64,000 nucleotides of DNA from a virus (IMGVR_UViG_3300036804_000165:792-64791); one strand, 5' to 3'. Counted from the stretch's first letter, positions 34 to 15,973 are shown. Translations and numbers: made by a program. The notes: generated from the sequence alone by a model not told the origin.

Positions 34-357
34 ACACTAGCAAGCTATGCTGTGTGTTTCCTATGACGTCGCATGTATTGATACGCGCTTGACTATGCGG
101 AACGAAGTAGCAAGGGAACGGATTGCCTGATAAGGCAGGGATTGCGAAGGCAGAAACATAGAATAGCGCAAGTCAATTCATGAATTAGGTGTGTCCTCCT
201 CTGAAATATCCTAAGCATATCGAAAGGACACGTAAGCAATTCGTGACGCGTTCATGTCCAATTGCTTGCGCTGTTCTTTCGACCTGCTAGGGAAACACCT
301 AGTAGGCGATGCGCGCATGTGCGTTCATCGCAAGCCTACAATCAGAGGACACCTACG

Positions 358-819
358 ATGGCAAAAGATATCAAGAATGCTGCTCCCCGTACTCAGGTCT
401 ATGTTCGCGCGTTGACGCGTGCGAAAGGCGCGACTGCGACGGAATTGAAACAGGCAGTGATTGACGCGAACCTCCCTCGTCGAGCGGAGGCGAAGAACGT
501 CGCGACGATGACGCAATTCACGTCGCACAATTCGTACAGCCTCACGCTGCTTGCAGCGACGTTCGGATATGCGTTCCTCGCAGTTGATAACCTCAAGTCC
601 GATCGGACGTATTTCTTCCGTTCGCCGAAGAACGCGGAATTTTTCGATCGGATGATTGCGGAACAGGCGGAAGAGGAGCGCAACGCGAAGGCGGAACGTG
701 AGGCTGCGAAGGCTGCGAAGCAGGCTGCGAAGGCGGAGCGCGATGCGCGCAAGGCTTCCAAGGCTGCGACACCTCCGAAGGCTTCCAAGGCTGCGGAAGG
801 CGAGCGCGCGAGCGTCTAA
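358..819 (+). CDS. First early protein; possible HTH with Ala/Lys-rich histone-H1-like tail
   Basis: ATG after box 342; LTRAKGATATELK resembles the DUF3489-like motif; C-terminus AKAAKQAAKA..KASKAA. Confidence 0.75.
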   Translation: MAKDIKNAAPRTQVYVRALTRAKGATATELKQAVIDANLPRRAEAKNVATMTQFTSHNSYSLTLLAATFGYAFLAVDNLKSDRTYFFRSPKNAEFFDRMIAEQAEEERNAKAEREAAKAAKQAAKAERDARKASKAATPPKASKAAEGERASV

Positions 820-921
820 CACTCGCTCGCGATAAGCGGACTAAAGCAGGCGGAACGCGCAAGCGTTTGCCTGTTTTAGCCTCCTTATCTGACGATATGG
901 AGCGATCAGAGGACACCTTAA

Positions 922-1191
922 ATGACCGATCAAATGCACGATGTCACCATCTTACAGGTGAATGCACATCGAGCCAAAGTCTTCGTCAACACCGTCTATG
1001 TCGGAAAAATCCGCATTGACGCCGACCAATCGCGCATCTTGTTTCGTTCGTCACGAGACGCATGGAACCGTGCGATCTACGAGATCGATCCCGAGACCGA
1101 CATCGCCAATCTCGCTGACAACCAACTGGATGTTTTCATCCAAGAGGCGATCAAGGCTTACCACCGGTACTACGCTCCCAAGCGCGCTTAG
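922..1191 (+). CDS. Hypothetical protein
   Basis: ATG after box 906. Confidence 0.8.
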   Translation: MTDQMHDVTILQVNAHRAKVFVNTVYVGKIRIDADQSRILFRSSRDAWNRAIYEIDPETDIANLADNQLDVFIQEAIKAYHRYYAPKRA

Positions 1192-1281
1192 CGTACTGAA
1201 CCAGGCGGAAGGCTCCCAGTCTTTGCCTGATTCAGCCTGCTAATCCCAGGACTTACCCCATCCTTCAGAGGACACCGAACA

Positions 1282-1440
1282 ATGAGAACCGCCCTTTTCG
1301 CGCTCGTCTTTGCGGTCGCGATTGCGCTGGTGTTTGCGAGCGCGTTGCTCGCGACCGACCAGCGTTCATCCGGATTGATCTGCATGGACCAGCACACGAC
1401 CGATGGAGCGTGCCACCGCCTCGTGCGCGGAACGCTCTAG
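1282..1440 (+). CDS. Small membrane/secreted peptide (52 aa, not in ORF track)
   Basis: ATG after box 1265; MRTALFALVFAVAIALVFASALLATDQ..CMDQHTTDGAC.. Confidence 0.7.
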   Translation: MRTALFALVFAVAIALVFASALLATDQRSSGLICMDQHTTDGACHRLVRGTL

Positions 1441-1536
1441 CGATTGACAGACCAAAGCAGGCGGAAGGCCCAGCCTTTGCCTGCTTTAGCCTGCCGACCA
1501 TCGCAGGACCCCAGCCTTTTCAGAGGACACCAGACA

Positions 1537-1881
1537 ATGCCAACCACGACGATTATTGACTATCGCGCCGTTCCGCGCGCGTCGCGTGCAAAGCCGACCT
1601 ACGCGCTTTGCACCGATAGCGAACAGAGCCGCTTTCTGACAACCGAGAACAAATGGCGGCTCGCGCCCAACGCGAAAATCCGCCTGTTCGCCAGCCGCGC
1701 CGCCATCGATGCGTTCGTCCGCTCGCCGGAGGCCGTCCCCGCCATCTATGCGCTGAACCGCGCCTTTCCCGATGTAGGGACGATGCCGATACAGTTTACG
1801 CCGCCTGCCCCTCGCGCCGATCTGCGAGGCGCCACCAAGGTTACGCCGAGCTATTCGCTGCGCTCGTTCGAACGCCGATAA
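1537..1881 (+). CDS. Hypothetical protein
   Basis: ATG after box 1520. Confidence 0.75.
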   Translation: MPTTTIIDYRAVPRASRAKPTYALCTDSEQSRFLTTENKWRLAPNAKIRLFASRAAIDAFVRSPEAVPAIYALNRAFPDVGTMPIQFTPPAPRADLRGATKVTPSYSLRSFERR

Positions 1882-1974
1882 GCATACGGAAGCAGCGCCG
1901 ATCGCCATGTCGCCGCTGTTTCCGCCTGCCAATCCGCAGGCGATCGAAGACCGATCGAATCAGAGGACACCGAC

Positions 1975-2295
1975 ATGACGATCTACACCATATCGATGAC
2001 TGACCATTTCGATGCGTCAGGAACCGATGGAGGCTTCCCGTATATCGCTTTGACCGTTTCCCATGAAGGGAAGCCCCAGACCGACATACGGATCGACTTT
2101 GAGACCGATGGAAAGCCGGCGATCTTGAAGGCGACCAATCGCCGATCGCCGATTGATTTCTATCCCATCGGCTTCAGCAGTCACTTGGATCTCGCGTGCG
2201 CCGCCTGGACGTTCATTCAGACCGCGCACGATAGGACCGACAACGAGCAGTATTCCGAGCTTTTCGAGGTTGCCGATTTGCTCTGGACCACATGA
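1975..2295 (+). CDS. Hypothetical protein
   Basis: ATG after box 1960. Confidence 0.8.
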   Translation: MTIYTISMTDHFDASGTDGGFPYIALTVSHEGKPQTDIRIDFETDGKPAILKATNRRSPIDFYPIGFSSHLDLACAAWTFIQTAHDRTDNEQYSELFEVADLLWTT

Positions 2296-2347
2296 CAGCC
2301 GCCTGCCAATCCCGCAGGAAACCCCAACCAATCAGAGGACACCGCAA

Positions 2348-2476
2348 ATGCAGCATTCCGGCACCATCCTGCTCGTCGCCCTGGGCCTGCTCGCCTGGGT
2401 CTACATCGGGCGCGAAGCCGTCCGCTTCAACGATCTGCTGACCGAGACGATCGCTCATACCGTCGTTTCGCGCTGA
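2348..2476 (+). CDS. Small single-TM protein (42 aa)
   Basis: ATG after box 2332; ILLVALGLLAWVYIG. Confidence 0.65.
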   Translation: MQHSGTILLVALGLLAWVYIGREAVRFNDLLTETIAHTVVSR

Positions 2477-2574
2477 CCATACCGAAGCCGCGCGCGCATC
2501 CCCCGATGCGTGTCGCCGCTTCGGCCTGGCTAGCACCAGGGCAATAACGACCACTCAGAGGACACCAAATTCCC

Positions 2575-2859
2575 ATGACACCACCCGAAATCATCATCCC
2601 GATGCTGAGCGCCAATGGCACGCCCGGCACCGCGCTGCTGGACGGCTACATCAATGCCATGGATGCGTTGCGCAAGGCCCGATCGGCGATGGACGAGACC
2701 GCGCCGCACGGGCGGGATTATCCGACGACCGATATCCTGCAAATGGCGACCACGCATCACCGTATCCGCCTGGGCATGATCGACCAGATCATCGACGATT
2801 TCTACAAGATCGGCCTCGCCGTAGGGGCCGAAACGCGCAAGCGCCGCCGCCAGCCGTGA
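2575..2859 (+). CDS. Hypothetical phage protein
   Basis: ATG after box 2555; NGT..L and PHGRDY motifs. Confidence 0.8.
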   Translation: MTPPEIIIPMLSANGTPGTALLDGYINAMDALRKARSAMDETAPHGRDYPTTDILQMATTHHRIRLGMIDQIIDDFYKIGLAVGAETRKRRRQP

Positions 2860-2944
2860 CCGAAGCAGCCCCGATCCTGCGGGATTGGGCGCTGTTTCGG
2901 CCTGGGCTTTCCAGGCAATCACCACCCACTCAGAGGACACCGAA

Positions 2945-3088
2945 ATGAAACGCATCATTCTGGCTTGCTGCCTGCTGCTCGCCGCTTGCGACGATGGCAA
3001 GCCGATCCACGGCATCAGCGGACCGAAAACCTCGCTGCTCAACATGGCGACCATCCATTGTTGCCTCTACGGCAACGGTCGTCGCTGA
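2945..3088 (+). CDS. Small lipoprotein (47 aa)
   Basis: ATG after box 2930; MKRIILACCLLLAAC lipobox. Confidence 0.7.
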   Translation: MKRIILACCLLLAACDDGKPIHGISGPKTSLLNMATIHCCLYGNGRR

Positions 3089-3181
3089 TCGAAGCGCTGA
3101 CCGAAACAGCCCCATCCTCGGCGGATGGCGGCTGCTTCGGCCTGGGCTTTCCAGGGGACCAACCTTCAGAGGACACCAATC

Positions 3182-3433
3182 ATGCAAACACCACAGAAAC
3201 GCGCCCGCGAGCCGGTCTACTGGATCGGCAACCCGGTCGCGTGCGACCTGTGCAGAAAGCCGTTCGGCGAGGCGGTCGGCGTCAAGATCGTCGATGGCCG
3301 GCTCGCCGTGACCGGATCGTGGGGCATTCTCGACCTGGGATGCCATCGCACGCACGGCGTCGGCGTCGGCACGGGCAAGGGCCAGGTCTACGAGCGGCAA
3401 ACCGATGGCCGCTGGCTCAAAGTCGAGGGCTGA
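3182..3433 (+). CDS. Hypothetical protein with CxxC
   Basis: ATG after box 3166; CDLC, GxGxGQVY..DGRWLKVEG. Confidence 0.8.
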   Translation: MQTPQKRAREPVYWIGNPVACDLCRKPFGEAVGVKIVDGRLAVTGSWGILDLGCHRTHGVGVGTGKGQVYERQTDGRWLKVEG

Positions 3434-3436
3434 GCG

Positions 3437-3634
3437 ATGGCGCAATATTACCATCCGCTCGACCCCGACTGCCCGGTCGTCGCCAAATTCTCGACCGATC
3501 TGACCGACGATCCCATGACCGAGGCGATGGGTGCGCCCGTCGATGACATCATGGCGGGTTTCGCGCGCAAGCATCGGGTCAACTGCGAACGCTGCCAGCG
3601 GTACGGGGCGGCGAATATCGAAGTGAGGGACTGA
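3437..3634 (+). CDS. Hypothetical protein
   Basis: Closely coupled ORF with CERC motif. Confidence 0.7.
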   Translation: MAQYYHPLDPDCPVVAKFSTDLTDDPMTEAMGAPVDDIMAGFARKHRVNCERCQRYGAANIEVRD

Positions 3635-3717
3635 CCGCCGGACCGAAGCAGCCCACCCAGCGATGGGTGCGGCTGTTTCGGCCTCGCGATCGTGCGGGGC
3701 ACTCAGAGGACACCATA

Positions 3718-4041
3718 ATGATCACCATGACCCTGTTCAGCGCGGCTAGAACCGCGCTGGTCAATGCCAACGGCCGCGATCTGCCGATCGTCATGCTGGC
3801 GAGCATCGATGCGTTCATCTTCGGCGTGGTCAAGGATACTCCGCAGAATCGGCTGATCAAGCCCGGCGGGATCCATGACACGCGACCGGAGCGGTATGTG
3901 CCGTTCTCCATGCGATCGACGGGCGGCGCGGCGGTGATGTGGGACGATCGCGGCGATAACGATCCAACCCAAGCGATGCAGGAGATCGCCGATTTGATCG
4001 GCTGCATCGCGCGCGATGGCCGCGTCGATCCGCACCCATGA
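3718..4041 (+). CDS. Hypothetical protein
   Basis: ATG after box 3703. Confidence 0.75.
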   Translation: MITMTLFSAARTALVNANGRDLPIVMLASIDAFIFGVVKDTPQNRLIKPGGIHDTRPERYVPFSMRSTGGAAVMWDDRGDNDPTQAMQEIADLIGCIARDGRVDPHP

Positions 4042-4259
4042 AGACCGGACAGACGCTCTGGTGGATAATCGAGCATGCCACCGAGGGCGCGTTCCTCGGC
4101 TACGCGCGACAGCGCCGCACCCGCGAGATGGCGCCGCTGTTTCGTCGCGCCGATGATCGCAAACCGGCGATGCTGTTCGGCTCGATTGCCGCCGCCGCCG
4201 AGGAACTGCAGTACATCACCGTCGATGAGCGGGACTATCAAATCGTGCCGCTCCGATAG
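4038..4259 (+). CDS. Hypothetical protein
   Basis: ATGA overlap with previous gene. Confidence 0.7.
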   Translation: MKTGQTLWWIIEHATEGAFLGYARQRRTREMAPLFRRADDRKPAMLFGSIAAAAEELQYITVDERDYQIVPLR

Positions 4260-4345
4260 CCGGACCGAAGCAGCGCCATCCGCGAGGGTGCCGCTGTTTC
4301 GGCCTCGCCGTCGCTCAAGACGCCGAGGCTCAGAGGACATCGACC

Positions 4346-4711
4346 ATGACCAAAACCACAGAGCCGCCGCGCTTGACCTCGCTCAGCAGCTTGGTGCGCG
4401 AGATCGCGGTGCCGGGGGAGTTGGCCTTCGCGTTCGCCACCGATCGTGTCGAACTGCTCAGGCTGATCAAGCCGAAGCCGCTCGACGCGAGCCAATCCGC
4501 CAAACTCTACGAGATCATCGGCGTGCTGATGGAGACCAACCAGGCATTGCGCAACTACGCCGCAAGGATGACCGTGCTGGCGGAAGACCTGGGCGGCAGC
4601 ATCGAAGAAATCATCGCCGCCCAGGTGGATATCAACGAGACCGCCGCGCACGCCAAGAAGGCAACGGCGCAAGTCAAGCGCCTCGCCAGCTTTCGCGACG
4701 CCGAGGATTGA
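4346..4711 (+). CDS. Hypothetical coiled-coil protein
   Basis: ATG after box 4330. Confidence 0.8.
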   Translation: MTKTTEPPRLTSLSSLVREIAVPGELAFAFATDRVELLRLIKPKPLDASQSAKLYEIIGVLMETNQALRNYAARMTVLAEDLGGSIEEIIAAQVDINETAAHAKKATAQVKRLASFRDAED

Positions 4712-4797
4712 GCCGCTGACCGAAGGCGCCCCCGTCGCAGGAGGGGCGGCGCTTTCGGCCTGGGGCTTCGCCCAGGACACCACCAGAGGACAACACA

Positions 4798-5064
4798 ATG
4801 GCACTCGAACTGGGCGCTTTGCGTAAAGCGCTGATTAACGCCGGAGCCGATACGACAATGGCGGAAACCGCGTCGGAAGAGGTCGCCGGTTATGAGAACC
4901 GTCTGACCCGGCAGACGACGATGGTGCAGGCCATGCTCGCGATCGGCCTGATGATGCTCGCCAGCCAGGGCGCACTCTGGCTGGAGATCGGCAAGCTCGA
5001 CGGCTCGATGGTCGCCTTGAATACCAAGGTCGATCTGATCGCCCGCGCCGTGAACGCTCACTAA
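4798..5064 (+). CDS. Small coiled-coil/TM protein (CCDC90/DUF1640-like)
   Basis: ALRKALINAGAD..AETASEEVAGYENRL followed by a hydrophobic helix. Confidence 0.7.
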   Translation: MALELGALRKALINAGADTTMAETASEEVAGYENRLTRQTTMVQAMLAIGLMMLASQGALWLEIGKLDGSMVALNTKVDLIARAVNAH

Positions 5065-5177
5065 TCCGCCAATCCATACCGCAACGGCTGGCGCGCGCCT
5101 CGCGAGGGGCGCGCGTTTGCTGTTTCGGCCTGGATTTGCAATGACCTGCCAGGGGGCAAACAGAGGACACCATAACA

Positions 5178-5411
5178 ATGAAACTGGACTTAACCCGCTG
5201 CGAAGCCGCGGCCTGGGTCGAAGCCGAGATGACGATCGTCACCAACGGCGTCGATCCCGGTGCGCGGCTGCAAATGGCGCGGGGAACTTTGGCAGCGTGC
5301 CGGCAAGCACCGGACGTCGCGGCCCTCATGCCTCATGCGATCGCCGCCTGCCTGCTGCTGATCGCCCGCCTCGAAGCGACCGAGGATCGACTGAAATCCG
5401 CCGCCGACTAA
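5178..5411 (+). CDS. Hypothetical protein
   Basis: ATG after box 5161. Confidence 0.7.
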   Translation: MKLDLTRCEAAAWVEAEMTIVTNGVDPGARLQMARGTLAACRQAPDVAALMPHAIAACLLLIARLEATEDRLKSAAD

Positions 5412-5509
5412 CCGCATACCGAGGCATCGCCACGGTCTTTCGAGATCGTGCCGATGTCTCGGCCTGGGTTAGCTACACCGCCACCAGGGGCATCAGAGGA
5501 CACCAACAC

Positions 5510-5806: not shown

Positions 5807-5907
5807 GCACCGAACCATTGACGACAGCGCTGCCCGAGCCGTTCGGGAGCGCTTTCGCCTTGGGTTCGCCTGGGGACAATCGAAACCTTTTCAGAGGACA
5901 CCAACCC

Positions 5908-6207: not shown

Positions 6208-6413
6208 CAGACGCAATGAGCGACAGAGCCATGAAGCTGCTGATCCGCAACATCTGTAAGGCGGCGCTTGATGACGCCAAGGGTGATTTCGCGCATCAGC
6301 GCCAACGGATCGAAACATCCTTCGTCGATGACCGCACGATCCAGATCAAGTTGTTTGGTCCCGGCAACCCGCCACCGTCTTACCTGACCGTCACGGTAAA
6401 AGGGTCGATTTGA
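6204..6413 (+). CDS. Hypothetical protein
   Basis: ATGA overlap. Confidence 0.7.
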   Translation: MTDAMSDRAMKLLIRNICKAALDDAKGDFAHQRQRIETSFVDDRTIQIKLFGPGNPPPSYLTVTVKGSI

Positions 6414-6509
6414 ACCATTGACGACAGCGGCGCCCGAGCCGTTCGGGGCCGCTCTCGCCTTGGGTTCATCCCCGAGGACTACCGAAACCTTTTCAGAGGA
6501 CACCTACAG

Positions 6510-7394
6510 ATGAAAAAACCAGCGGCTCGAAAGACCGTCGAGCAACTGAAATCAGCGGTATGGCCGGATCGGGCAACGGCGCTGGCCGATCTCAAACCGG
6601 CCGGTCTGTCGGCGCGCGGTGCGGACTACGAACTGCGCGAATATAAGACCGGATCGTGGCAGTTAATGCCGCTGACCGACGAGGTCTCGCGTGAGGAGCG
6701 CGTGGTGCAGGCGCTGCGCAAGCAGCCCGGCCAGCCGCCACGCGGGACGGCGAAAGTCATCGTCGAGGCCAAGGCACCCGCCAAGGCCAAGGCGAAGGCC
6801 CCGGCCAAGGCGCCCGCTAAGGCACCGCCAGAGGCTCCGACCAAAACCCCGGCGGAAGCCCCTGCGGCGGCCCCGGTCAAGGCGCCCAACGGCGAGGCCA
6901 AGCCCACGATCGCCCCGCCGGACCCGGCGCCGGTCGCGACGCTGCAAGAACTGTTCTCGCCGATGCCGGAAGCCAACGCGCCGTACGAGATCGTCATCGC
7001 CGAGGGATCACCGGCTTTCCCCCGCCATACCGCGCATACCACGGCGATCGATATCTCGCGGAAGCTGAAAGCCCCGGTGCTGGTGCGCAGCGAGGGTTTC
7101 GAGATCAACCGCGTCTATGACTGGGCGGCGATCGAGAAGGCCCGCAAGGCGTCCCGCGTGCCGGGCAAGCGAGGCGGTCGGCAGGCGGGCGGCGAGAGCA
7201 AGTTTGCCCGCGCCGCGCGTCTGCTGTTCCGCCCCGAAGGCGCCACCGCCGCCGAACTGGAGGTCGAATGCGGCTGGACGCGCGTGGGCCAGCGGCACGT
7301 CAACCGCGCATCGAAGTTCAACGCCAACGCCCGGATCACCATCCTGGGCGACAAGCACTGGCGCCTCGAAGCGCCCAAGCCGACCAAAGCATGA
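6510..7394 (+). CDS. Protein with Ala/Lys/Pro-rich linker and C-terminal DUF3489-like HTH
   Basis: AKAPAKAKAKAPAKAP linker; SKFARAARLLFRPEGATAAELEVECGW. Confidence 0.75.
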   Translation: MKKPAARKTVEQLKSAVWPDRATALADLKPAGLSARGADYELREYKTGSWQLMPLTDEVSREERVVQALRKQPGQPPRGTAKVIVEAKAPAKAKAKAPAKAPAKAPPEAPTKTPAEAPAAAPVKAPNGEAKPTIAPPDPAPVATLQELFSPMPEANAPYEIVIAEGSPAFPRHTAHTTAIDISRKLKAPVLVRSEGFEINRVYDWAAIEKARKASRVPGKRGGRQAGGESKFARAARLLFRPEGATAAELEVECGWTRVGQRHVNRASKFNANARITILGDKHWRLEAPKPTKA

Positions 7395-7479
7395 CTTGAC
7401 TGATGCACCACCCGGACTTCGGGGGGCGGGCGGTGCATCAGCCTGATCATGCCGATCAGGACTTCAGAGGACACCGACA

Positions 7480-8045: not shown

Positions 8046-8113
8046 CGGAATGGCCCGCATGTCGGAATGACATGTGGGCTATTCGCACAACATTGCGCCA
8101 AAAGCGACGCCTC

Positions 8114-8323
8114 ATGCTCATCGGCTATGTCATCCATACCGGCTTCGACGGCCTCTCGGTGCTCAGCGAGCACGATACCTGGGTCGATCCCAGCGCCGCC
8201 AACGTCCTGATGTTCGCCAGCTATGCCCTGGCCTCGGCGTGGCTGCTGTCGCATCATCGCCAATCACAGGTACTGGCCGGCACGTTGCCGACCGTTTCGC
8301 GACGCGACGATTTGCCCTCCTAA
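8114..8323 (+). CDS. Hypothetical protein
   Basis: Fills the gap before the next repeat; start uncertain. Confidence 0.5.
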   Translation: MLIGYVIHTGFDGLSVLSEHDTWVDPSAANVLMFASYALASAWLLSHHRQSQVLAGTLPTVSRRDDLPS

Positions 8324-8392
8324 CCCATACCGAAACAGCGCCCGCTGCTTCGGCCTGGGGATTAGGCCCTGGGGTAACAGAGGACACCACCA

Positions 8393-9019
8393 ATGAGCAA
8401 ACCAGCCAAAAAGCGTCTCCCGCCGCGCTGGGCGGAGCAGCTTCGCTACGACATGGTTTTCGCCGAGGACGCCATCACCACCAAAGGCGAACTTCCCCCG
8501 GTGTTCGTTCTGCACAACCCAGATCGCAGCGTCACGCCGTTCGTGGTGCCGCTGCGTGATGCCGCGCACAAGCGCCGGGTCTACCAGTTCCTCGCCCTGA
8601 CACTCCTCGCCAGCGGCGCGGTGGGCTTCACGATGATGACCGAGGCGTGGATGCGCGATGAGTTAGCCGAGCCCGGCGAAAGCGCGGAGGCGGCGATGGC
8701 GCGGGTCGAGCGCGACGGGCCGATGCCCAGCCAGGTATCGAACCGCAAAGAGATCGTCAGCATCGTCATGGTCTATCGCGACGACGCAGACGAGCGCCAG
8801 ACCAGCGGCGTGATCGGCGAGATCGTGCGCGCCGACGATGCCTCGGTCGCCGCTATCAAGTGGGAGGTGAACGCGGAAACGAGCGCCGCTGGCGCGATGG
8901 TCGACATCATGCCGGTCATCGCGCCAGACCCCCGCCATCGCGCGGCCGCGGCGCGGCTGCTGATCGAGATCGGACCGACGATCATGCAAGTGCTCGGCAT
9001 CGTCGAGGTGGCGGTATGA
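8393..9019 (+). CDS. Hypothetical protein
   Basis: ATG after box 8378. Confidence 0.8.
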   Translation: MSKPAKKRLPPRWAEQLRYDMVFAEDAITTKGELPPVFVLHNPDRSVTPFVVPLRDAAHKRRVYQFLALTLLASGAVGFTMMTEAWMRDELAEPGESAEAAMARVERDGPMPSQVSNRKEIVSIVMVYRDDADERQTSGVIGEIVRADDASVAAIKWEVNAETSAAGAMVDIMPVIAPDPRHRAAAARLLIEIGPTIMQVLGIVEVAV

Positions 9020-9330
9020 GCCAGACCATCGCCGATATCCACTTCTCGATGCAGATCGAGGATGATCTGGTCGTGCTGACCGACCACGGCTCCGGTTATT
9101 CGATCACCAACGGCGCCGAACTGGTGATCGCAGAACTGGCGCTGCTGCTGGGCGCCGATTTCGCCCGCTTCCGCGTGATCTACCGCGACACCGAGCAGGA
9201 CTGGGACGGCATCGCTCATCACGGTGATCGTTTCATCCGCTTCGTGCCGCTGCGCACCCGTGACCGGCACGTTGCCGTTGACCTCGCCAAACGCGGTGTC
9301 GACGCCAAAGGCGATCCCTGGAAGAAATGA
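9016..9330 (+). CDS. Hypothetical protein
   Basis: SITNGAE.VI..L..RVIYRDT..WDGI motif; ATGA overlap. Confidence 0.75.
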   Translation: MSQTIADIHFSMQIEDDLVVLTDHGSGYSITNGAELVIAELALLLGADFARFRVIYRDTEQDWDGIAHHGDRFIRFVPLRTRDRHVAVDLAKRGVDAKGDPWKK

Positions 9331-9423
9331 CCGAACCGCTGACGACAGCAGCCACCCAGCGCGCGGTGGCTGCTATCGCCTGGGTTCGCCCCGGGGCATG
9401 ACCTTTTTCAGAGGACACCAAAG

Positions 9424-9843
9424 ATGAAAATCACCTTCAACCGCGTCGGTGTGGAGCGTCTGCTCGCGCACACCAAGGCGGCCAAGGACCACAAAAAGAC
9501 CTACGCCGAAGAGGCTGACGGCAAAAAGTGTGTCGGGCCTGCGCTGTGGCTGGTCGGCGATGACGGCGTCTACTTGATGAGCAACGGCAAGCCCGCGCTC
9601 AAGCCCGAGGAGGGCGACGGCCACTTCGTCGTCTATGCCGATCAGATCAACCCCAAGACGATGGCCTTCGACGACTGGTGGGCCGCGAAAAACACCGCGT
9701 TCGGGGGTGACGACGGGGTCGATGGCATCGCCGCCGGCGAGATCGAACAGGCGCTGGCGGCCGCCCCCGGCAAGCCGTTGACGCTGGACCTGACGCCAAA
9801 GGCGATCACCCTGCACGTCGCCGCACCGAAGCGGAAGCATTGA
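9424..9843 (+). CDS. DUF3085-like protein
   Basis: LWLVGDDGVYLMSN..VVYA..DDWW..FGGDDG. Confidence 0.75.
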   Translation: MKITFNRVGVERLLAHTKAAKDHKKTYAEEADGKKCVGPALWLVGDDGVYLMSNGKPALKPEEGDGHFVVYADQINPKTMAFDDWWAAKNTAFGGDDGVDGIAAGEIEQALAAAPGKPLTLDLTPKAITLHVAAPKRKH

Positions 9844-9936
9844 CCGAGGCCGCCCGTCGATTTGCGCATGTGCGCAAATGTGCAAATACGGGCGGCATCG
9901 GCCTGGGCTTCCCCAGGGCTTTCAGAGGACACAAAC

Positions 9937-10944
9937 ATGCAACAACCCCAAGCCTACCGAACCGCCAGCGGCCCGGTGCTGGGCATCGAAGCCTCGCTGC
10001 GTGACATCCGAGAATGGCGGCCCACCGTCACGCAAATCCGCGAGCCGATCCTGACCTTCATGGTCGTCGGCACATCGATGTTCGCCGCCGACATGCCGCC
10101 GCTGGCGCGTGCCTTCGCGCCGACGCAAGACGATGTCGAAGGCATCGCCGAACTGACCGAGGTAGCGGTGCGGGCCGGGCGGCTGATCGATTTCGGCGCC
10201 TGGACCAATGACGTCATCAAGTACGGCGGCAACCGTGGCGGCCCGCTCTACTCGCGCGACGTCATCGGTCATCCGTTCCGCGATCCGTATGTGTTCTTCC
10301 ATACCTGGGAGGACGCATCGGCGGCCTATCTGGTCAACCCGCTGGAGCCGGAGCGGACCGGCGGCGATGTCGAGTGCATCGAACTGCAACCGATCGAGAT
10401 CAAAGGCAATCGGGCGCTGATGATCGGCGATCGGGCGGTGCTCACCCCGGACGCCAGCAACTTCGCGGGATGGTCGAAATACCATTGCCGATCGATGCCG
10501 TCGCTGTGGCGGTATCTGCCGGGCGCCGAGGCGATCAACACCGGCGGCAAGCCTGAAAACGCCGCAGCGGGCAACGTGCTCGACCCGCTGATGACCGCGC
10601 TCTTGATCCTGTCCACCAGGGGCATCGCGCGCGAAACCGTTGCCGCGCCGGACAAGCTGCAGAAGGCCCGCCGCAAGAACGGCAAGCCGCTGATCCCACC
10701 CTATCAACGGGTGGACTCGGCGCCCTACGTCACGGCGATCCAGAATCGCGCGGCACGGGGGCGCGCGCCGTCACAAGGCGGCACGCACGCTTCGCCGGTC
10801 ATGCATCTGCGCATGGGTCATGTGCGGACTTATGCGTCGGGCGTGCAGACGTTCGTGCGCGACGCCATCGTCAACGCCAGCGAGGCAACCCGCGCCGCCT
10901 TCACGATCGGACGCAGTCACTACACGGTCAAACAAAAAGTCTGA
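9937..10944 (+). CDS. Hypothetical phage protein
   Basis: ATG after box 9922; C-terminal GGTHASPVMHLRMGHVR motif. Confidence 0.8.
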   Translation: MQQPQAYRTASGPVLGIEASLRDIREWRPTVTQIREPILTFMVVGTSMFAADMPPLARAFAPTQDDVEGIAELTEVAVRAGRLIDFGAWTNDVIKYGGNRGGPLYSRDVIGHPFRDPYVFFHTWEDASAAYLVNPLEPERTGGDVECIELQPIEIKGNRALMIGDRAVLTPDASNFAGWSKYHCRSMPSLWRYLPGAEAINTGGKPENAAAGNVLDPLMTALLILSTRGIARETVAAPDKLQKARRKNGKPLIPPYQRVDSAPYVTAIQNRAARGRAPSQGGTHASPVMHLRMGHVRTYASGVQTFVRDAIVNASEATRAAFTIGRSHYTVKQKV

Positions 10945-11025
10945 CCGCAGACGGCAGTCGCATGGGCCCGCGCTCATGCGGCTGCCGCCTGGGATCGGCC
11001 CAGGACTCAGAGGACACAACCAAGA

Positions 11026-11481
11026 ATGAAGATTATGCTCGCCGAAGCCGTGACCCTGGACATCAGGCCAGGGGTGCGACTGTCGATTGAGGCCGATGGC
11101 TCGGTGCTGCTCGAACCCGAGGCGCCGCCGGGGGAGCCAGAGCCTCCGACAGTGGCGAAGCCCAAGGTGCTCCGATCGCGTCCGATCACCCGCCGCGCCT
11201 CGGGGGCGATATTCACCGGCACCATCGAGAATGATTTGCTGGTGAAGCTCGCGCAGGAGTCGGATCGCTGGGTCGGCTTCGGCGACGTGGTGAAACTCCT
11301 CTACCCCGAGGTGCCATTGCGAGCCAACGGCAAGCCGACACAGGACTACGAGAACCTCCGTATCGCCCTGCGCCGGCTGCTCAAGCTCGGTGAGGTCGAG
11401 CAGCGCTCCACCGGGGCAGGGAACGCCTCCGGGCGCGGCTTGAAGGCGCAATACCGCATCGTCAAGAAGCCCGTGTCATGA
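11026..11481 (+). CDS. Putative winged-helix protein
   Basis: ATG after box 11007; ENLRIALRRLLKLGEVEQ..YRI. Confidence 0.65.
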   Translation: MKIMLAEAVTLDIRPGVRLSIEADGSVLLEPEAPPGEPEPPTVAKPKVLRSRPITRRASGAIFTGTIENDLLVKLAQESDRWVGFGDVVKLLYPEVPLRANGKPTQDYENLRIALRRLLKLGEVEQRSTGAGNASGRGLKAQYRIVKKPVS

Positions 11482-11582
11482 TCGAGCGCGCGTATGCTCA
11501 GCCATTGACCGAACCCGCGACACGTCGAGCGTGTCGCAGGCTCGGCCTGGGGCTGGTCCCAGGGTTTCAGAGGACACAGACA

Positions 11583-11882
11583 ATGCCAAACATAAGCGAT
11601 TTCGAGGATGCCTTCGCCTTGGCGCGGGCGTATCCCGACACCTTCGAGGCGGTGCCCGCAGCCGAGACCGCGAGGCTCATGGCGGGCGACTGCGTCAAGG
11701 TCTGCCGCAACGACGAGCGATTCTGGGTGCTGATCCACACCAACGCGGACGGCCGGATCAGCGGCGAGGTCAACAACGAGCTGGTCGATCCGCGCAACGC
11801 CGACATACCGTGTGGGACCATCGTCGGCCTGGAATACCGCCATGTCTACCAGACCTACCGGACGCCCAAGGAGCGGCGCTGA
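11583..11882 (+). CDS. DUF2314/YegJ-like protein
   Basis: GDCVKV..ERFWV..G.VNNE. Confidence 0.6.
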   Translation: MPNISDFEDAFALARAYPDTFEAVPAAETARLMAGDCVKVCRNDERFWVLIHTNADGRISGEVNNELVDPRNADIPCGTIVGLEYRHVYQTYRTPKERR

Positions 11883-12550
11883 TGGACAAGCTCACGCCGG
11901 AACAGATGTTTCCGAAGAGCCTGGGACTGATCCGCGCGGCCCTGTCGCAGGCCGAGCGGCTGGCGATCCCGCTGCCCAAGCAGTTGCGCACCCGCCCACG
12001 CGACGCACGGGGCTATCCGATCCCGTTCATCGTGGTGATCGACCGCCGCCGGCAGCCGCAGTTCACCATCAACGACAGCACCCGTGTCACCGCCTGCCGC
12101 ACCCGCTCGCTCTGCGGCATCTGCGGCAAGCGGCTGGACAAAGACCTGTGGTTCGTCGGCGGCGCGCGCTGCTTCCTGCACCCGCGTGGCGCGTTCGTCG
12201 ATCCGCCGAGCCATTACGCGTGCGCCGAATACGCGCTGCGGGTCTGCCCGTTCCTCGCGGCACCCAGCTACGCCAAGCGGATCGACGACCGCAAGCTGCC
12301 GCCGGGCGGGTTGCCCGATGGCATGGCGCTCGGCCGCGTGGACTTCATGCCGCCCGCGCAGCCCGAACGCTTCGGCCTCGGCAGCACGCGCGCCTATCGC
12401 TGGGTGTCGCACGACAGGGACGGGGTCTACGTGGTCGACGCCTGGGACTATGTCGAATGGTGGAAGACCGGCGAGCCGGTCAACGCGCCGGACGGACTGC
12501 CGGCGGATCAGCCGATGCTGCGCAACTGGCGGGGAGGCAACGGCGCATGA
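11882..12550 (+). CDS. Cys-rich hypothetical protein
   Basis: RGYPIPF..LCGICG..DPPSHYACAEYALRVCPFL. Confidence 0.75.
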   Translation: MDKLTPEQMFPKSLGLIRAALSQAERLAIPLPKQLRTRPRDARGYPIPFIVVIDRRRQPQFTINDSTRVTACRTRSLCGICGKRLDKDLWFVGGARCFLHPRGAFVDPPSHYACAEYALRVCPFLAAPSYAKRIDDRKLPPGGLPDGMALGRVDFMPPAQPERFGLGSTRAYRWVSHDRDGVYVVDAWDYVEWWKTGEPVNAPDGLPADQPMLRNWRGGNGA

Positions 12551-12723
12551 GCGAGGGGGAAAAACTGGCACGCGCGGTGCTGCTGTTTTTCCGTGGCGGC
12601 CACTGGTCGGCCTGCGACCGCGAGGTCTGGCAGGCGCTGACCGGCTCGGAGGACGCGACGACGCGGGCGTTGTGCGATCTGGCGCGGCGGGTGCAGGCCG
12701 CCGAGGCAGCGATCCCGCGCTGA
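12547..12723 (+). CDS. Hypothetical protein
   Basis: ATGA overlap, GGAGG RBS. Confidence 0.6.
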   Translation: MSEGEKLARAVLLFFRGGHWSACDREVWQALTGSEDATTRALCDLARRVQAAEAAIPR

Positions 12724-12801
12724 CGATGATGGACCGAGGCAGCACCAGGCACCCCCTGGCTGCTGTCTCGGCCTGGGATCGTCCCAGGAATGGAGGACAC
12801 C

Positions 12802-13401
12802 ATGAGCGATGAACACCAAACTATCCAGCACACGGTGCTCTACGACGCCGCGGCGCGGGCGAACTCGACGCGGGTCTGCGGCGATTGCCAACTGTGCTGC
12901 AAGCTCGTGCCGGTCAGTTCGATCGGCAAGCCGGCGAACACGCGCTGTCGTCACCAGCGCGTCGGCAAGGGCTGTCTGGTCTATCATCAGGCCGGGATGC
13001 CGCCCGAGTGCGACCTGTGGTCATGCAAGTGGCTGCTGGGGGGCGAGACGGCGGACCTGCAACGCCCCGATCGCGTGCATTATGTCATCGACATGATGCC
13101 CGACATGATCGGCGCGATCCCGCCGGGGAGCAGCGAGCGTCACGACGTCATGGTCACCCAGGTCTGGCTCGATCCGGCGTTTCCGTTGGCGCATCGCGAT
13201 CCCGGCCTGCGCGGCTATGCCGAGCAGATCGCCGCGCGCGATCAAATGCCGATCCTGGTCCGCATCGGCTCGTCGGAGGCGTTCCTGCTGGTCGCGCCAT
13301 CCTTGGCGAGTGACGGCCAATGGCACGAGCAATCCATCAACCGCCAGCCCGAGCAGCCCAAGCACGGGATGATGTTTCTCGACCGGATGATGGGAGAATG
13401 A
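12802..13401 (+). CDS. YkgJ-like cysteine-cluster (Zn/Fe-S) protein
   Basis: CGDCQLCCK..C.H..GCLVY..P.EC..W.C.WL. Confidence 0.7.
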   Translation: MSDEHQTIQHTVLYDAAARANSTRVCGDCQLCCKLVPVSSIGKPANTRCRHQRVGKGCLVYHQAGMPPECDLWSCKWLLGGETADLQRPDRVHYVIDMMPDMIGAIPPGSSERHDVMVTQVWLDPAFPLAHRDPGLRGYAEQIAARDQMPILVRIGSSEAFLLVAPSLASDGQWHEQSINRQPEQPKHGMMFLDRMMGE

Positions 13402-13631
13402 CCATGGGCGAGCCAAATTGGCACGACGATCCCGACGTGCAGGCGTACGGGCAGATGATGCAGGCCGCGCTGGTGATGGGGCGCGTCAAGCTCGGCGCGG
13501 ACAAGGCGCTGTCCGTGGCGCTCGCCACGATCGCCGAGGAAATGGAGCGTCATCTCGGGCGGCAGACCGTCGCGTGGGTGCTACGCACCTTCGCCGAGGG
13601 GCTGGCGAGCGGGCGGGGAGGCGAGCCATGA
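13398..13631 (+). CDS. Hypothetical protein
   Basis: Coupled ORF. Confidence 0.65.
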   Translation: MTMGEPNWHDDPDVQAYGQMMQAALVMGRVKLGADKALSVALATIAEEMERHLGRQTVAWVLRTFAEGLASGRGGEP

Positions 13632-14002
13632 CGCGCCGGTACGGCCTGCGGCACTACATCCTCGACGAGGCCGACAACCCGGTGGAACTGCCGATGCCCG
13701 AGGGGGTGCCGCTGCTCGACGCGCTCGCCGCGGTGATCAAGCCGCACGCCCAGTGGATCGCCGATAACGAGGCCCGGATGCGGGTCGCCGAGGATTTTAT
13801 CGACGATGTGCGTGTCTCGACGGTGTTTCTCAGTGTCGGGATCAGCTTCGGCGAGCCGCCGGACATGTTCGAGACCATGCTGTTCAAGCCGGGGCAGGAG
13901 GCGTTCCTGTTCGGCCGCTGCGCCACCTGGAACGAGGCCAAGGGGCTGCACGACTTCGCGGTGGCGATGGTGAAGAACGGAGAACTGCCATGGCAATCGT
14001 GA
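13628..14002 (+). CDS. Hypothetical phage protein
   Basis: VSTVFL..FETMLF..R..TW.EA..H motif. Confidence 0.75.
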   Translation: MTRRYGLRHYILDEADNPVELPMPEGVPLLDALAAVIKPHAQWIADNEARMRVAEDFIDDVRVSTVFLSVGISFGEPPDMFETMLFKPGQEAFLFGRCATWNEAKGLHDFAVAMVKNGELPWQS

Positions 14003-14262
14003 TCAAGATCGTCAGTCGCGGCGACGGCAAGCCGACGCCGCACGCCGAGCGCTACCTCGCGCACTATGATCCCGATGCCGATCCGCTGAACGGCTGGGTC
14101 GAAAGCACCGAGTTCCTCGACGAGGCGCTGCTGTTCGCCAGCATAACCGAGGCGACGGAATGCTGGCGGCGGGTCAGCAAGACGATGCCGCGACGGCTGA
14201 GCGACGGGCGCCCCAACCGCCCGTTAAGCGCCTACACCTGTAGCTTTCAGCCGGTCGACTGA
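13990..14262 (+). CDS. Hypothetical protein
   Basis: DGRPNRPLSAYT motif. Confidence 0.7.
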   Translation: MAIVIKIVSRGDGKPTPHAERYLAHYDPDADPLNGWVESTEFLDEALLFASITEATECWRRVSKTMPRRLSDGRPNRPLSAYTCSFQPVD

Positions 14263-14336
14263 CCCTCGGACGGATGCAGCGCCGCCGCGCGCTGCATCTG
14301 CCTGGGGATCATCCCAGGATTTCAGAGGACACCACT

Positions 14337-15896: not shown

Positions 15897-15925
15897 GAGA
15901 AGGACACACCGAAGCCAACTGACAG

Positions 15926-15973
15926 AGCGCAACACCGCCGGGCGCATAGCCTTGCCGTGTTGCGCTTTTTTTT
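15926..15973 (+). terminator. Rho-independent terminator ending the early operon
   Basis: AGCGCAACAC / GTGTTGCGCT stem followed by T-run 15966-15973. Confidence 0.65.

What the first reader, a model, noticed from the sequence alone, without database searches (positions are those of the whole stretch)
160..14333. Cassette-like early region: 24 gene units each headed by a covarying two-hairpin module plus a TCAGAGGACACC box
Seen: almost every intergenic gap from 0.16 to 14.3 kb has one architecture. After a stop codon and AC comes hairpin 1 (about 10-bp basal stem, usually a bulge, then a variable upper stem). It is abutted with no spacer by hairpin 2, which starts CCT and nearly always closes on AGG or GGG. 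A short linker then leads to TCAGAGGACAC(C) and an ATG 0-8 nt later. Example 1: CCGAAGCAGC(2860)/GCTGTTTCGG(2891), CCTGG(2901)/CCAGG(2911), box 2930. Example 2: CTGATGCACC(7400)/GGTGCATCAG(7432), CCTGATC(7442)/GATCAGG(7454), box 7464. Primary sequence changes while pairing is kept, including G-U pairs, which argues for selection on a folded RNA or ssDNA. The TCA and CACC flanks are not explained by 16S anti-SD pairing. Each module heads 1-4 unrelated small genes. Known analogues: T7 early RNase III sites, HK022 put two-stem antiterminators, T4-type PeSL shuffling elements and mycobacteriophage start-associated sequences; I do not recognise this motif as any of them. Inference: a modular expression and exchange system in which the early transcript is cut or protected into unit mRNAs with a standard 5' end and RBS, and the repeats double as recombination joints for swapping accessory (probably anti-host) genes.
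Basis: partly seen in the sequence, partly recalled or inferred. Interest (0 to 1): 0.9.

Follow-up and report, generated by a model that had tools for sequence, protein, structure and literature searches.

The report
Folded RNA modules punctuating phage operon
Between almost every pair of early genes, this uncultured soil phage carries the same folded RNA module plus a standard ribosome-binding box, in the slot where sister phages carry self-cutting ribozymes, so it probably marks where one long message is cut or insulated into gene-sized units.

Summary
24 copies of a CAGAGGACAC(C) box head gene units on the + strand between 342 and 14332. 21 of them carry a full module found by a covariance model; there are no hits elsewhere in the 64-kb window.

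About 109 distinct copies occur in about 14 uncultured phage contigs. Early proteins in these contigs are only 26-62% identical or unrelated.

Hairpin 1 (P2) and hairpin 2 (P3) covary strongly. G-U pairs outnumber A-C 99:16, so the sense RNA is what folds.

New here:
- A third helix, P1, contains the upstream stop codon. It competes with P3 at about equal predicted energy.
- In sister phages the same slot (stop codon, element, box, ATG) holds hammerhead or twister candidates (E down to 8e-9, below Rfam cut-offs).
- The box flanks match a conserved leader 'anti-box' that differs with the box variant in two relatives.

Best reading (0.55): an intercistronic RNA processing or insulation module plus a standard RBS. 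The nuclease is unknown. No RNA data exist.

Gene order is shuffled at module boundaries, which fits but does not prove a recombination role.

No Rfam or literature match. The scan noted similar two-hairpin modules in ribozyme slots on other genomes (e1-6081348, e1-3287705).

The parts
189..206 (+). Leader anti-box GGUGUGUCCUCCUCUGA, complementary (with a bulge) to the box
   Evidence: It is conserved upstream of the first box in 8 genomes. In the MFE fold it pairs with the first box over 14 bp.
342..353 (+). Box 1 (leader, no canonical module); ATG at 358
   Evidence: No model hit.
828..919 (+). Module 2 (divergent hairpin 2), box at 906
   Evidence: 25.2 bits, E 0.0011; z -4.6.
1195..1276 (+). 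Module 3 (hairpin 1 plus weak CCUG/CAGG), box at 1265
   Evidence: No model hit at E<=0.01.
1439..1533 (+). Module 4, box at 1520
   Evidence: 36.7 bits.
1874..1973 (+). Module 5, box at 1960
   Evidence: 40.1 bits.
2296..2343 (+). Partial module 6 (hairpin 2 CCUGC/GCAGG only), box at 2332
2471..2568 (+). Module 7, box at 2555
   Evidence: 41.8 bits.
2847..2943 (+). Module 8, box at 2930
Evidence: 45.2 bits.
3088..3179 (+). Module 9, box at 3166
   Evidence: 56.2 bits.
3630..3716 (+). Module 10 (P3 variant CCUCGC/GUGCGGGG), box at 3703
   Evidence: 68.0 bits.
4252..4343 (+). Module 11 (P3 variant CCUCG/CGAGG), box at 4330
   Evidence: 49.3 bits.
4707..4796 (+). Module 12, box variant CCAGAGGACAA at 4783
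   Evidence: 68.6 bits.
5072..5173 (+). Module 13, box at 5160
   Evidence: 33.1 bits.
5406..5506 (+). Module 14; P1 CUAACC/GGUUAG includes the stop codon UAA at 5409
   Evidence: 52.6 bits..
5809..5904 (+). Module 15, box at 5891
   Evidence: 41.8 bits.
6409..6506 (+). Module 16, a near-copy of module 15 with compensatory differences; box at 6493
   Evidence: 40.8 bits.
7387..7477 (+). Module 17 (P3 CCUGAUC/GAUCAGG), box at 7464
Evidence: 44.2 bits.
8317..8390 (+). Module 18 (short P2, long P1), box at 8377
   Evidence: 52.3 bits.
9330..9421 (+). Module 19, box at 9408
   Evidence: 56.3 bits.
9831..9935 (+). Module 20, box at 9922
   Evidence: 45.9 bits.
10939..11020 (+). Module 21, box at 11007
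   Evidence: 64.0 bits.
11496..11580 (+). Module 22, box at 11567
   Evidence: 49.3 bits.
12721..12803 (+). Module 23, box variant AUGGAGGACACC at 12790
   Evidence: 64.6 bits.
14258..14335 (+). Module 24, box at 14322
   Evidence: 71.8 bits.
15925..15978 (+). Stem-loop followed by a run of eight T: probable end of the early operon
   Evidence: Read directly from the sequence. The pattern scan did not list it.

Best explanation
Each module is an RNA element within one long early transcript, running from about 350 to about 15,900 on the + strand. It makes the following gene unit autonomous.

Anatomy, 5' to 3':
- P1a: 6-7 nt that usually contain the upstream stop codon.
- A short linker ending in an invariant GA.
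- P2: a stable hairpin with an 11-bp covarying base and a variable top.
- P3: starts directly after P2 as CCUGG...CCAGG. Its 5' arm and loop (P1b) can pair with P1a instead.
- A linker, commonly 3-9 nt.
- The box CAGAGGACACC, which holds the Shine-Dalgarno core.
- 0-8 nt, then ATG.

The most likely function is intercistronic processing or insulation. The module would direct endonucleolytic cutting of the polycistronic RNA and/or block exonucleases, so that each unit mRNA ends in a protective hairpin, starts with one, and carries an unstructured, uniform ribosome-binding site.

What is shown: the structure, its conservation, its RNA polarity, its position, and its slot equivalence with ribozyme candidates.

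What is inferred: that cutting happens, where, and by which nuclease. The candidates are a host RNase III-type enzyme acting on the P1, internal loop and P2 helix; RNase E or another host enzyme; or self-cleavage.
For: 1. Real, selected RNA structure. G-U:A-C is 99:16 in P2 plus P3.

2. Conservation far exceeds that of the genes. About 109 distinct copies occur in about 14 contigs. Only 8 of 37 window early genes have homologues in four relatives, at 26-62% aa identity. The closest relative, L289, shares about 7.

3. Slot equivalence.
- In L294 the stop-element-box-ATG slots hold three twister-P1 matches (E 7.7e-9, 8.8e-6, 5.2e-5), a twister-P5 (E 3.4e-4; 37.3 bits against a cut-off of 37.6), a hammerhead III (E 6.2e-6) and 2 modules.
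- In L293 three of the first four slots give hammerhead matches and the fourth looks like one by eye. The next nine hold module-like elements by eye, 6 of them model hits.
- G004 has a hammerhead III candidate (E 0.025) in its leader.
- Clustered hammerheads flanking single genes in prophages, proposed to process long phage transcripts and shown to cleave in vitro, are in print (PMC3088659, passages read).

4. Only two kinds of gene junction occur: overlap or near-abutment, or a module.

5. No promoter- or terminator-like sites occur above chance inside the operon, so one long transcript is plausible.

6. In MFE folds the box is mostly unpaired.
Against: - No RNA data exist. The only sequencing run that holds the stretch is the probable source DNA metagenome.
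- The ribozyme matches in relatives are all below Rfam gathering scores. A gathering-threshold search of 9 relatives found nothing.
- The window itself has no ribozyme match at E<=1, so the equivalence rests on position only.
- The module has few invariant unpaired nucleotides (G12 and A13; CCU pairs in P3). That argues against self-cleavage and gives no clue to a nuclease.
- P1 is weaker than P2 and P3. It is 69.7% paired, and an A-C mismatch at its centre accounts for many of the 56 unpaired cells of 86 there.
- Hairpins could insulate or stabilise without any cut.
- The host and its RNases are unknown.
Confidence: 0.55

Rival explanations
1. Ribosome-gated bistable switch without obligatory cleavage. 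The ribosome terminating on the upstream gene melts P1, whose 5' strand holds the stop codon. The shared G-rich strand then refolds into P3. This would couple the state of the intergenic RNA to upstream translation, for example to place the next RBS close to the terminating ribosome, to tune initiation, or to keep Rho from loading.
For: - P1 and P3 cannot both form fully. In 21 of the 56 copies with P1 of at least 5 bp, 2 nt or fewer separate P1b from the P3 3' arm.
- The two states are close in predicted energy. The mean difference is -0.08 kcal/mol. Of 65 copies, 20 favour one state, 25 are within 1 kcal/mol and 20 favour the other.
- P1 contributes -8.2 kcal/mol, against -5.1 when P1a segments are swapped between copies.
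- The stop codon starts 8-11 nt before P2 in 53 of 82 copies, with a peak of 30 at -10.
- Two type II hammerhead matches in L293 also begin with the upstream UGA.
Against: - No segment was found that would hide the box or the start codon in either state, so the switch has no visible output.
- 34 of 90 copies have only 3-4 contiguous P1 pairs.
- Placing a structured element directly after a stop codon may simply reflect genome compaction.
- Energies are nearest-neighbour predictions.
Confidence: 0.15
2. Operator for a trans-acting regulator of early expression. The uniform box, and perhaps the conserved GA/CCU junction, would be recognised by a phage factor that switches all early genes together. 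One candidate is the leader anti-box RNA, possibly released by the leader ribozyme in relatives. Another is a conserved early protein. T4 RegA and RegB are functional analogies recalled from memory.
For: - A 16-17-nt anti-box lies upstream of the first box in 8 genomes. It differs with the box variant in L293 and L294.
- Duplex energies with a genome's own boxes are -14.5 to -19.2 kcal/mol, against -8.9 to -12.9 for the anti-box read backwards.
- In G004, L293 and L294 a ribozyme candidate lies between the anti-box and the first box.
- Box variants are uniform within a genome.
- Two DUF3489-like early genes are shared by most relatives.
Against: - There is one anti-box per transcript against 24 boxes.
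- The advantage of cognate over non-cognate pairs is clear only for L293.
- In MFE folds the anti-box pairs in cis with the first box, which needs no action in trans.
- This explains the box but not P1-P3.
- Uniform boxes could also come from gene conversion among modules.
Confidence: 0.12
3. The repeats act mainly at the DNA level, as homologous joints for cassette exchange in the manner of PeSL, with the RNA fold incidental. Alternatively they are a selfish, spreading repeat.
For: - Homologous genes occupy different positions relative to the core gene in W, G001-G004 and L289.
- The units homologous to W 2575 and W 3182 are swapped in L289.
- A 3.8-kb stretch of W corresponds to 0.7 kb in L289.
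- The same gene heads a unit in one phage and is internal to a unit in another.
- The phage encodes a RecT-family protein.
- Neighbouring modules are near-copies, for example 5809-5904 and 6409-6506.
Against: - Compensatory substitutions and the 99:16 excess of G-U over A-C show selection on the sense-strand fold, not merely on sequence identity.
- The box and the CCU...GG nucleotides are kept across genomes whose genes are unrelated.
- All copies lie on one strand, between a stop and a start codon.
- Breakpoints could not be placed within modules. No genome pair exceeds 76% nt identity in shared early genes.
Confidence: 0.1
4. put-like cis-acting antitermination RNAs (HK022 type, recalled from memory). 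The two abutting hairpins would repeatedly modify RNA polymerase so that it reads through the 15.6-kb operon.
For: - The module has two abutting stem-loops of conserved structure and variable sequence on the nascent RNA.
- The operon is very long, with about 24 untranslated gaps.
Against: - 24 copies are present, rather than one per promoter.
- No terminator-like sites occur above chance to read through.
- The module is always fixed to a stop codon and an RBS.
- Ribozyme candidates occupy the same slot in relatives, which points to RNA cutting rather than polymerase modification.
Confidence: 0.04

Closest known systems
Clustered hammerhead (and twister) self-cleaving ribozymes flanking single genes or short gene blocks in prophages (Perreault et al. 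2011, PMC3088659, passages read; review PMC6765202, passages read)
   Same: - One structured RNA per gene junction, all in the sense orientation, in phage operons of small and changeable genes.
- The proposed role is processing long phage transcripts into gene-length mRNAs.
- In sister phages (L293, L294, G004) hammerhead or twister candidates and the present module alternate in the same slot of the same operon.
   Different: - The module has no hammerhead or twister core and no Rfam match at E<=1.
- It has few invariant unpaired bases.
- Cleavage is unproven.
- It has a competing helix pair, P1 and P3.
RNase III processing signals of the phage T7 early polycistronic mRNA (R0.3-R1.3); details recalled, no paper read here
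   Same: - Intercistronic irregular hairpins in one long early transcript.
- A lower stem, internal loop and upper stem, here P1, the GA/CCU loop and P2.
- Cleavage there leaves a stabilising 3' hairpin.
   Different: - 24 sites, against 5 in the T7 early region.
- The module is fused to a uniform 11-12-nt RBS box.
- A second hairpin is present that is exclusive with the lower stem.
- No sequence relation was tested and RNase III cutting was not tested.
Start-associated sequences and extended SAS (SAS/ESAS) of Cluster K mycobacteriophages (Pope et al. 2011, PMC3203893, passages read)
   Same: - An asymmetric conserved box that contains the SD core, lies a few nt before mostly ATG starts, and has flanks that 16S pairing does not explain.
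- 11-19 copies in the non-structural half of the genome, in one orientation.
- About half carry inverted repeats with a variable spacer just upstream.
- The elements are associated with changing gene families.
- The function is unknown.
   Different: - The sequence differs (GGGATAGGAGCCC).
- The authors report that ESAS repeat variation does not support RNA pairing and favour a DNA-binding protein. Here compensatory changes and G-U excess support RNA pairing.
- No P1/P3 alternative or leader anti-box came up in the passages I read.
PeSL promoter-early stem-loop cassettes of T4-type phages (PMC2839356, PMC4122927; search listing and abstract starts only)
   Same: Repeated intergenic regulatory motifs that border small accessory genes and are proposed to mediate modular shuffling.
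   Different: - PeSLs are composite promoter-terminator motifs.
- No sigma-70-like promoter or terminator signal occurs above chance in this operon.
- The present module is conserved as an RNA fold plus an RBS.

Membership tests
Hammerhead ribozyme (Rfam RF00008, RF02276) | Catalytic core CUGANGA / GAAA / UH with three stems; detectable by the Rfam model | tested here: not met
   Window 1-17000 searched at E<=1 on both strands: no hammerhead match. Relatives do have candidates in the same slot: L294 at E 6.2e-6; L293 at E 0.0044, 0.022 and 0.024; G004 at E 0.025. All are below gathering scores.
Twister, twister-sister, pistol, hatchet and HDV-like ribozymes (Rfam) | Match to the family covariance model | tested here: not met
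   No match at E<=1 in window 1-17000. Twister-P1 and twister-P5 candidates occur only in relative L294.
T7-type RNase III processing signal | Intercistronic position in a long phage early transcript | tested here: met
   Modules lie between the stop and start codons of consecutive + strand ORFs. There is no internal promoter or terminator excess.
T7-type RNase III processing signal | About two turns of irregular duplex, with an internal loop separating a lower and an upper stem | tested here: inconclusive
   P1 (at least 5 bp in 56 of 90 copies), the GA/CCU internal loop and P2 (hairpin of median 36 nt) can form such a helix. P1 competes with P3 and is weak in 34 of 90 copies.
T7-type RNase III processing signal | Cleavage by host RNase III | not testable with these tools
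   No RNA data. The host is unknown.
SAS/ESAS of Cluster K mycobacteriophages | 13-bp consensus GGGATAGGAGCCC, 3-7 bp before start codons | tested here: not met
   The box here is CAGAGGACACC. The position rule is similar: 0-8 nt, and 85 of 86 starts are ATG.
SAS/ESAS of Cluster K mycobacteriophages | 17-bp imperfect inverted repeats whose variation does not support RNA pairing (PMC3203893) | tested here: not met
   Here 11 of 11 P2 pairs and 3 of 5 P3 pairs show changes on both sides. G-U:A-C is 99:16.
PeSL cassettes of T4-type phages | An early promoter joined to a terminator-like stem-loop | tested here: not met
   One promoter-like site was found, on the minus strand, against 2.5 expected. 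15 terminator-like sites were found against 12.6 expected. None marks the modules. Only a sigma-70 consensus was tested.
Integron attC-type recombination site | Structure selected in single-stranded DNA and recombined by a nearby integron integrase | tested here: inconclusive
   The G-U over A-C asymmetry fits sense RNA, or + strand ssDNA only. Integrase was not searched for systematically: only 19 window proteins were scanned in Pfam, and none was an integrase.

The most novel reading that the evidence does not exclude
The P1/P2/P3 module is a catalytic or ribosome-gated RNA of a class not yet described. It has taken over the hammerhead and twister slot in these phages. It would cut itself, or be licensed for cutting, only after the ribosome terminating on the upstream gene releases the stop-codon-containing strand of P1. 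A leader-derived anti-box RNA would then act on the 24 identical ribosome-binding boxes as a global timer of early translation.
Probability: 0.15. Interest if true: 0.9.

Novelty: new variant of a known kind. Interest (0 to 1): 0.72.

Why it matters
Phage operons punctuated by self-cleaving ribozymes have been known since 2011, but their biological purpose is still unsettled.

Here an uncatalogued, strongly covarying RNA module fills the same slot 24 times in one genome. In sister genomes it alternates with hammerhead and twister candidates. That gives three things:
- A well-defined candidate for either a new processing signal or a new ribozyme class.
- A natural set of slot-swapped operons for testing what the slot does.
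- A testable link between translation termination, RNA refolding and initiation at the next gene.

The uniform box and the leader anti-box also suggest a simple RNA-based way to control a whole early gene set.

The module could be useful as a compact insulator part for synthetic operons.

Tried and rejected
- Megablast of window 1-15000 against cultured phages found no match. Blastn of one module found only two short chance hits. So no cultured relative is known.
- TerL and portal searches gave distant hits, at most 59% (Rhizobium phages) and at most 38% (Arthrobacter phages). The host stays unknown. One early protein had no phage hit.
- The genome contigs pattern scan returned 120 loci, all with a single box and no second copy. 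These are chance hits.
- The viral scan with the window's T-type box returned 17 loci, none with multiple copies. No closer relative was found that way.
- Sequencing runs: no RNA holder is listed. One DNA soil-metagenome run, the probable source, holds the stretch.
- Rfam search of the window gave one irrelevant match, a Flavi xrRNA at E 0.84 on the minus strand. Rfam at gathering threshold on 9 relatives gave 0 hits.
- Reading P1 and P3 as a pseudoknot was rejected as a general fold. In 21 of the 56 copies with P1 of at least 5 bp, 2 nt or fewer are left between P1b and the P3 3' arm.
- An ermC-like attenuator, with the P3 3' arm masking the box, was rejected. No complementarity to the box or start was seen, and the box is mostly unpaired in MFE folds.
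- Compensation of a short P2 by a long P1, which a fixed RNase III duplex length would predict, is not supported. Spearman rho is +0.22.
- Internal promoters or terminators: none above chance.
- PHROGs on 10 early proteins gave no family. Pfam on 10 gave only DUFs.
- My first two ad hoc hairpin parsers mis-parsed many copies and were replaced. For the 43-copy tests I dropped 10 of the 53 parsed rows by eye as mis-parsed or non-module, and 16 of the 69 box hits had no parse.
- The Rhizobium phage RHph_N28_2 (50 kb), L069 and 5 chance-hit loci gave 0 model hits. They served as negative controls.
- Supplementary files of papers were not requested. Figures and supplements of PMC3088659 and PMC3203893 may show details that I did not see.

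Full report
**What the sequence is**

The window is 64,000 of the 64,791 bases of a single-contig virus record. The record has an imperfect direct terminal repeat of about 256 bp. It encodes a Mu-type portal, a large terminase, a 1350-aa probable tape-measure ORF (no Pfam match), a Phage-tail_3 protein, a RecT-family protein and a weak ParB_N match below the Pfam cut-off. GC content is about 65%. The only sequencing run that holds the stretch is a DNA soil metagenome, probably its source. No cultured phage is close, and the host is unknown.

From about 350 to about 15,900 all plausible genes lie on the + strand. I called at least 37 ORFs. The region ends in a stem-loop followed by a run of eight T.

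**Observation**

- TCAGAGGACAC with up to 1 mismatch occurs 22 times on the + strand between 342 and 14332. Chance expectation for the whole window is 0.73, and 0 of 100 shuffles reach the observed total.
- Two further variants, at 4783 and 12790, bring the count to 24.
- A covariance model built from 12 copies finds 21 full modules in the window. All are on the + strand between 828 and 14335, and none lies in the remaining roughly 49 kb.
- The boxes at 342, 1265 and 2332 have atypical or partial upstream structure.
- Gene junctions are of two kinds only: overlap or near-abutment (-13 to +3 nt), or a module-bearing gap of 52-113 nt. Two odd values come from my imperfect gene calls.
- Starts after the box are ATG in 85 of the 86 copies with a callable ORF, 0-8 nt after ACACC.

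**The family**

Pattern scans and an anchor-gene search recovered relatives, all from uncultured viral or metagenome contigs. They are G001 (70.6 kb, complete, terminal repeats), G002-G004, L259, L261, L264-L266, L289, L293 and L294.

The model finds 101 hits (91 distinct) in 292 kb, and 18 more in three of 44 anchor-gene loci. In each locus all hits are on one strand. A Rhizobium phage, L069 and five chance-hit loci gave no hits.

The genes differ far more than the modules do. Only 8 of 37 window early genes have homologues in four relatives, at 26-62% aa identity. Shared DNA is at most 76% identical.

**Structure**

Results on the 91 distinct copies:
- The base of hairpin 1 (P2, 11 pairs) is 93.8% paired, with changes on both sides at 11 of 11 pairs.
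- Hairpin 2 (P3, 5 pairs) is 99% paired, with such changes at 3 of 5 pairs.
- The covariation score is 0.515 against 0.175 in shuffles (0 of 500 reach it).
- Slid controls pair at 34-48%.

That alignment was fitted to the model. Two other checks agree:
- An unfitted MAFFT alignment of 43 copies gives 93% pairing for P2.
- An independent set of 18 copies gives 92.2% pairing, with 12 of 16 pairs compensatory. This set includes a CCCC/GGGG version of P3.

Arm-swap permutations agree too, with 0 of 2000 reaching the observed value for each helix. G-U outnumbers A-C by 68:15 in P2 and 31:1 in P3. So the folded strand is the sense strand, most simply the RNA.

Invariant positions:
- A13, just 5' of P2 (90 of 91).
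- C100, C101 and U102 at the start of P3.
- G150 and G151 at its end.
- The box CAGAGGACACC.

**A third helix**

The 6-7 nt upstream of P2 (P1a) pair with the end of the P3 5' arm plus its loop (P1b). Examples are CUAACC/GGUUAG, CUGAUC/GAUCAG, CUAGCC/GGCUAG, GAACC/GGUUC and CCUGGC/GCCAGG.

Evidence for P1:
- The model alignment was not fitted to P1. On it P1 is 69.7% paired against 58.4% in shuffles (0 of 500 reach it).
- All 7 pairs show changes on both sides.
- At the central position 56 of 86 cells are unpaired. Many of these are the A-C mismatch of the common CUGACC/GGGCCAG version.
- P1 has at least 5 contiguous pairs in 56 of 90 copies.

P1a usually contains the stop codon of the upstream ORF. 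The stop codon starts 8-11 nt before P2 in 53 of 82 copies, with 30 at exactly -10.

P1 and P3 share nucleotides. In 21 of those 56 copies 2 nt or fewer remain between P1b and the P3 3' arm, so a pseudoknot is not a general solution.

The two states have nearly equal predicted energy. The mean difference is -0.08 kcal/mol, and of 65 copies 20 favour one state, 25 are within 1 kcal/mol and 20 favour the other. P1 adds -8.2 kcal/mol, against -5.1 when P1a segments are swapped between copies.

**The slot in sister phages**

The box varies between genomes but is uniform within each one:
- ACAGAAAGGAACA in L293.
- ACAGAGGAACACC or ACAGAGGAGCACC in L294.
- Some CAGAGGGCACC in L289.

In L294, the slots between the stop codon and the box hold the following:
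- Three twister-P1 matches (E 7.7e-9, 8.8e-6, 5.2e-5).
- One twister-P5 match (E 3.4e-4; 37.3 bits against a cut-off of 37.6).
- One hammerhead III match (E 6.2e-6).
- Two of the present modules.

In L293, three of the first four slots give hammerhead matches: two type II and one type III with a core insertion (E 0.0044-0.024 in a 1.4-kb search). The fourth looks like a type II hammerhead by eye only. The next nine slots hold module-like elements by eye, and 6 of these are model hits.

G004 has a hammerhead III match (E 0.025) in its leader.

All these ribozyme matches are below Rfam gathering scores, and a gathering-threshold search found none. Their catalytic cores are nevertheless visible in the alignments. 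In the two L293 type II matches, the upstream UGA forms the first three nucleotides of the match. This echoes the stop codon inside P1a.

Perreault et al. 2011 (PMC3088659, passages read) describe multiple hammerheads flanking single genes or short blocks in prophages, including Agrobacterium and Azorhizobium. They showed cleavage in vitro and suggested that long phage transcripts are processed into gene-length mRNAs. A 2019 review (PMC6765202, passages read) says the purpose is still undefined.

**Mechanism**

Because the module alternates with known self-cleaving motifs in the same slot of homologous operons, I think its most likely role is the same kind of job: intercistronic processing or insulation of the early transcript, followed by a uniform RBS (confidence 0.55).

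Two geometries fit:
- A cut on the extended P1, internal loop and P2 helix, as at T7 RNase III sites (recalled). After the cut, the freed CCUGG strand refolds into P3 as a 5'-terminal hairpin.
- A cut 5' of P2 near the invariant GA, which leaves P2 and P3 as a structured 5' leader. A twister or a type III hammerhead would leave a similar leader.

Nothing here shows that cutting occurs. No RNA data exist.

The near-equal energy of P1 and P3, with the stop codon in P1a, keeps a ribosome-gated switch alive as a rival (0.15). I found no output for such a switch, since neither state masks the box.

**Box and anti-box**

The flanks of the SD core are complementary to a conserved leader element, GGUGUGUCCUCCUCUG, at window 189-204.
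- It lies on the sense strand upstream of the first box in 8 genomes.
- No ORF follows it on the other strand.
- It differs with the box variant in L293 and L294.
- In MFE folds it pairs with the first box over 13-14 bp, and the flanks covary between W and G001.
- Duplex energies with a genome's own boxes are -14.5 to -19.2 kcal/mol, against -8.9 to -12.9 for the reversed control. Cognate specificity is clear only for L293.

I add its conservation, and the ribozyme candidates that lie between the anti-box and the first box in G004, L293 and L294.

**Cassette exchange**

- Relative to the conserved DUF3489-like gene (W 6510-7394), homologues of W 3182, 3437, 4346, 8393, 12802 and 15106 sit on the other side or in another order in relatives.
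- In L289, the closest relative (anchor protein 76% identical), the units homologous to W 2575 and W 3182 are swapped.
- W 8045-11882 (3.8 kb) corresponds to 0.7 kb in L289.
- The homologue of W 11882 is box-headed in L289 but internal to a unit in W.

This fits exchange at module boundaries. But every intergenic gap is a module, and no genome pair is close enough to locate breakpoints.

**Comparison and novelty**

- The module is not a member of any Rfam family.
- It does not have the SAS/ESAS sequence, and unlike ESAS it shows RNA covariation (PMC3203893, passages read).
- It is not a PeSL: no promoter or terminator signal was found (those papers were seen in the search listing only).
- No paper among the 15 listed of 80 that hold AGAGGACACC concerns phages. 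Three word searches found no description of such a module.

I rate it a new variant of a known kind, namely structured RNAs that punctuate phage operons.

After I had found the ribozyme candidates, the scan's notes showed that similar two-hairpin modules in ribozyme slots had been noted on other genomes (e1-6081348, e1-3287705, e1-6048622). These are unchecked notes and do not count as evidence.

Noticed in passing
window 189-206 (and leaders of L131, L132, L133, L265, L289, L293, L294): A conserved sense-strand anti-box, GGUGUGUCCUCCUCUG, lies upstream of the first box in 8 genomes. It differs with the genome's box variant in L293 and L294, and in MFE folds it pairs with the first box. In G004, L293 and L294 a hammerhead or twister candidate lies between the anti-box and the first box.
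   Followed up: partly
window 22358 (+), 25687 (+), 30467 (-), 16055 (+): Box-like sequences occur outside the early operon. Three sit just before the ATGs of middle-region genes: 22376 (+), 25698 (+) and 30461 (-). The one at 16055 follows the operon terminator and has no ORF. None has the hairpin module.
   Followed up: partly
window 358-819 and 6510-7394: Two early proteins carry a DUF3489-like 'GATxxEL' segment and Lys/Ala/Pro-rich tracts. They are the only early genes shared by most module-bearing relatives, which makes them possible partners of the module or box. Binding was not tested.
   Followed up: partly
Only a minority of those loci carry the module.
   Followed up: partly
L069 (IMG/VR contig, lower GC): CAGAGGACA(C) recurs after stop codons and is followed, not preceded, by a hairpin. 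This looks like a different repeated element with a similar core.
   Followed up: no
L294 (reverse strand; about 12222-18219 in sense coordinates): One early operon mixes twister-P1, twister-P5, hammerhead and two-hairpin modules, one per gene junction. Several twister candidates begin with UUAAUGC soon after the upstream stop codon.
   Followed up: partly
window 9424-9843 and 15106-15597: Early accessory genes with DUF3085 and DUF3846 domains.
   Followed up: no
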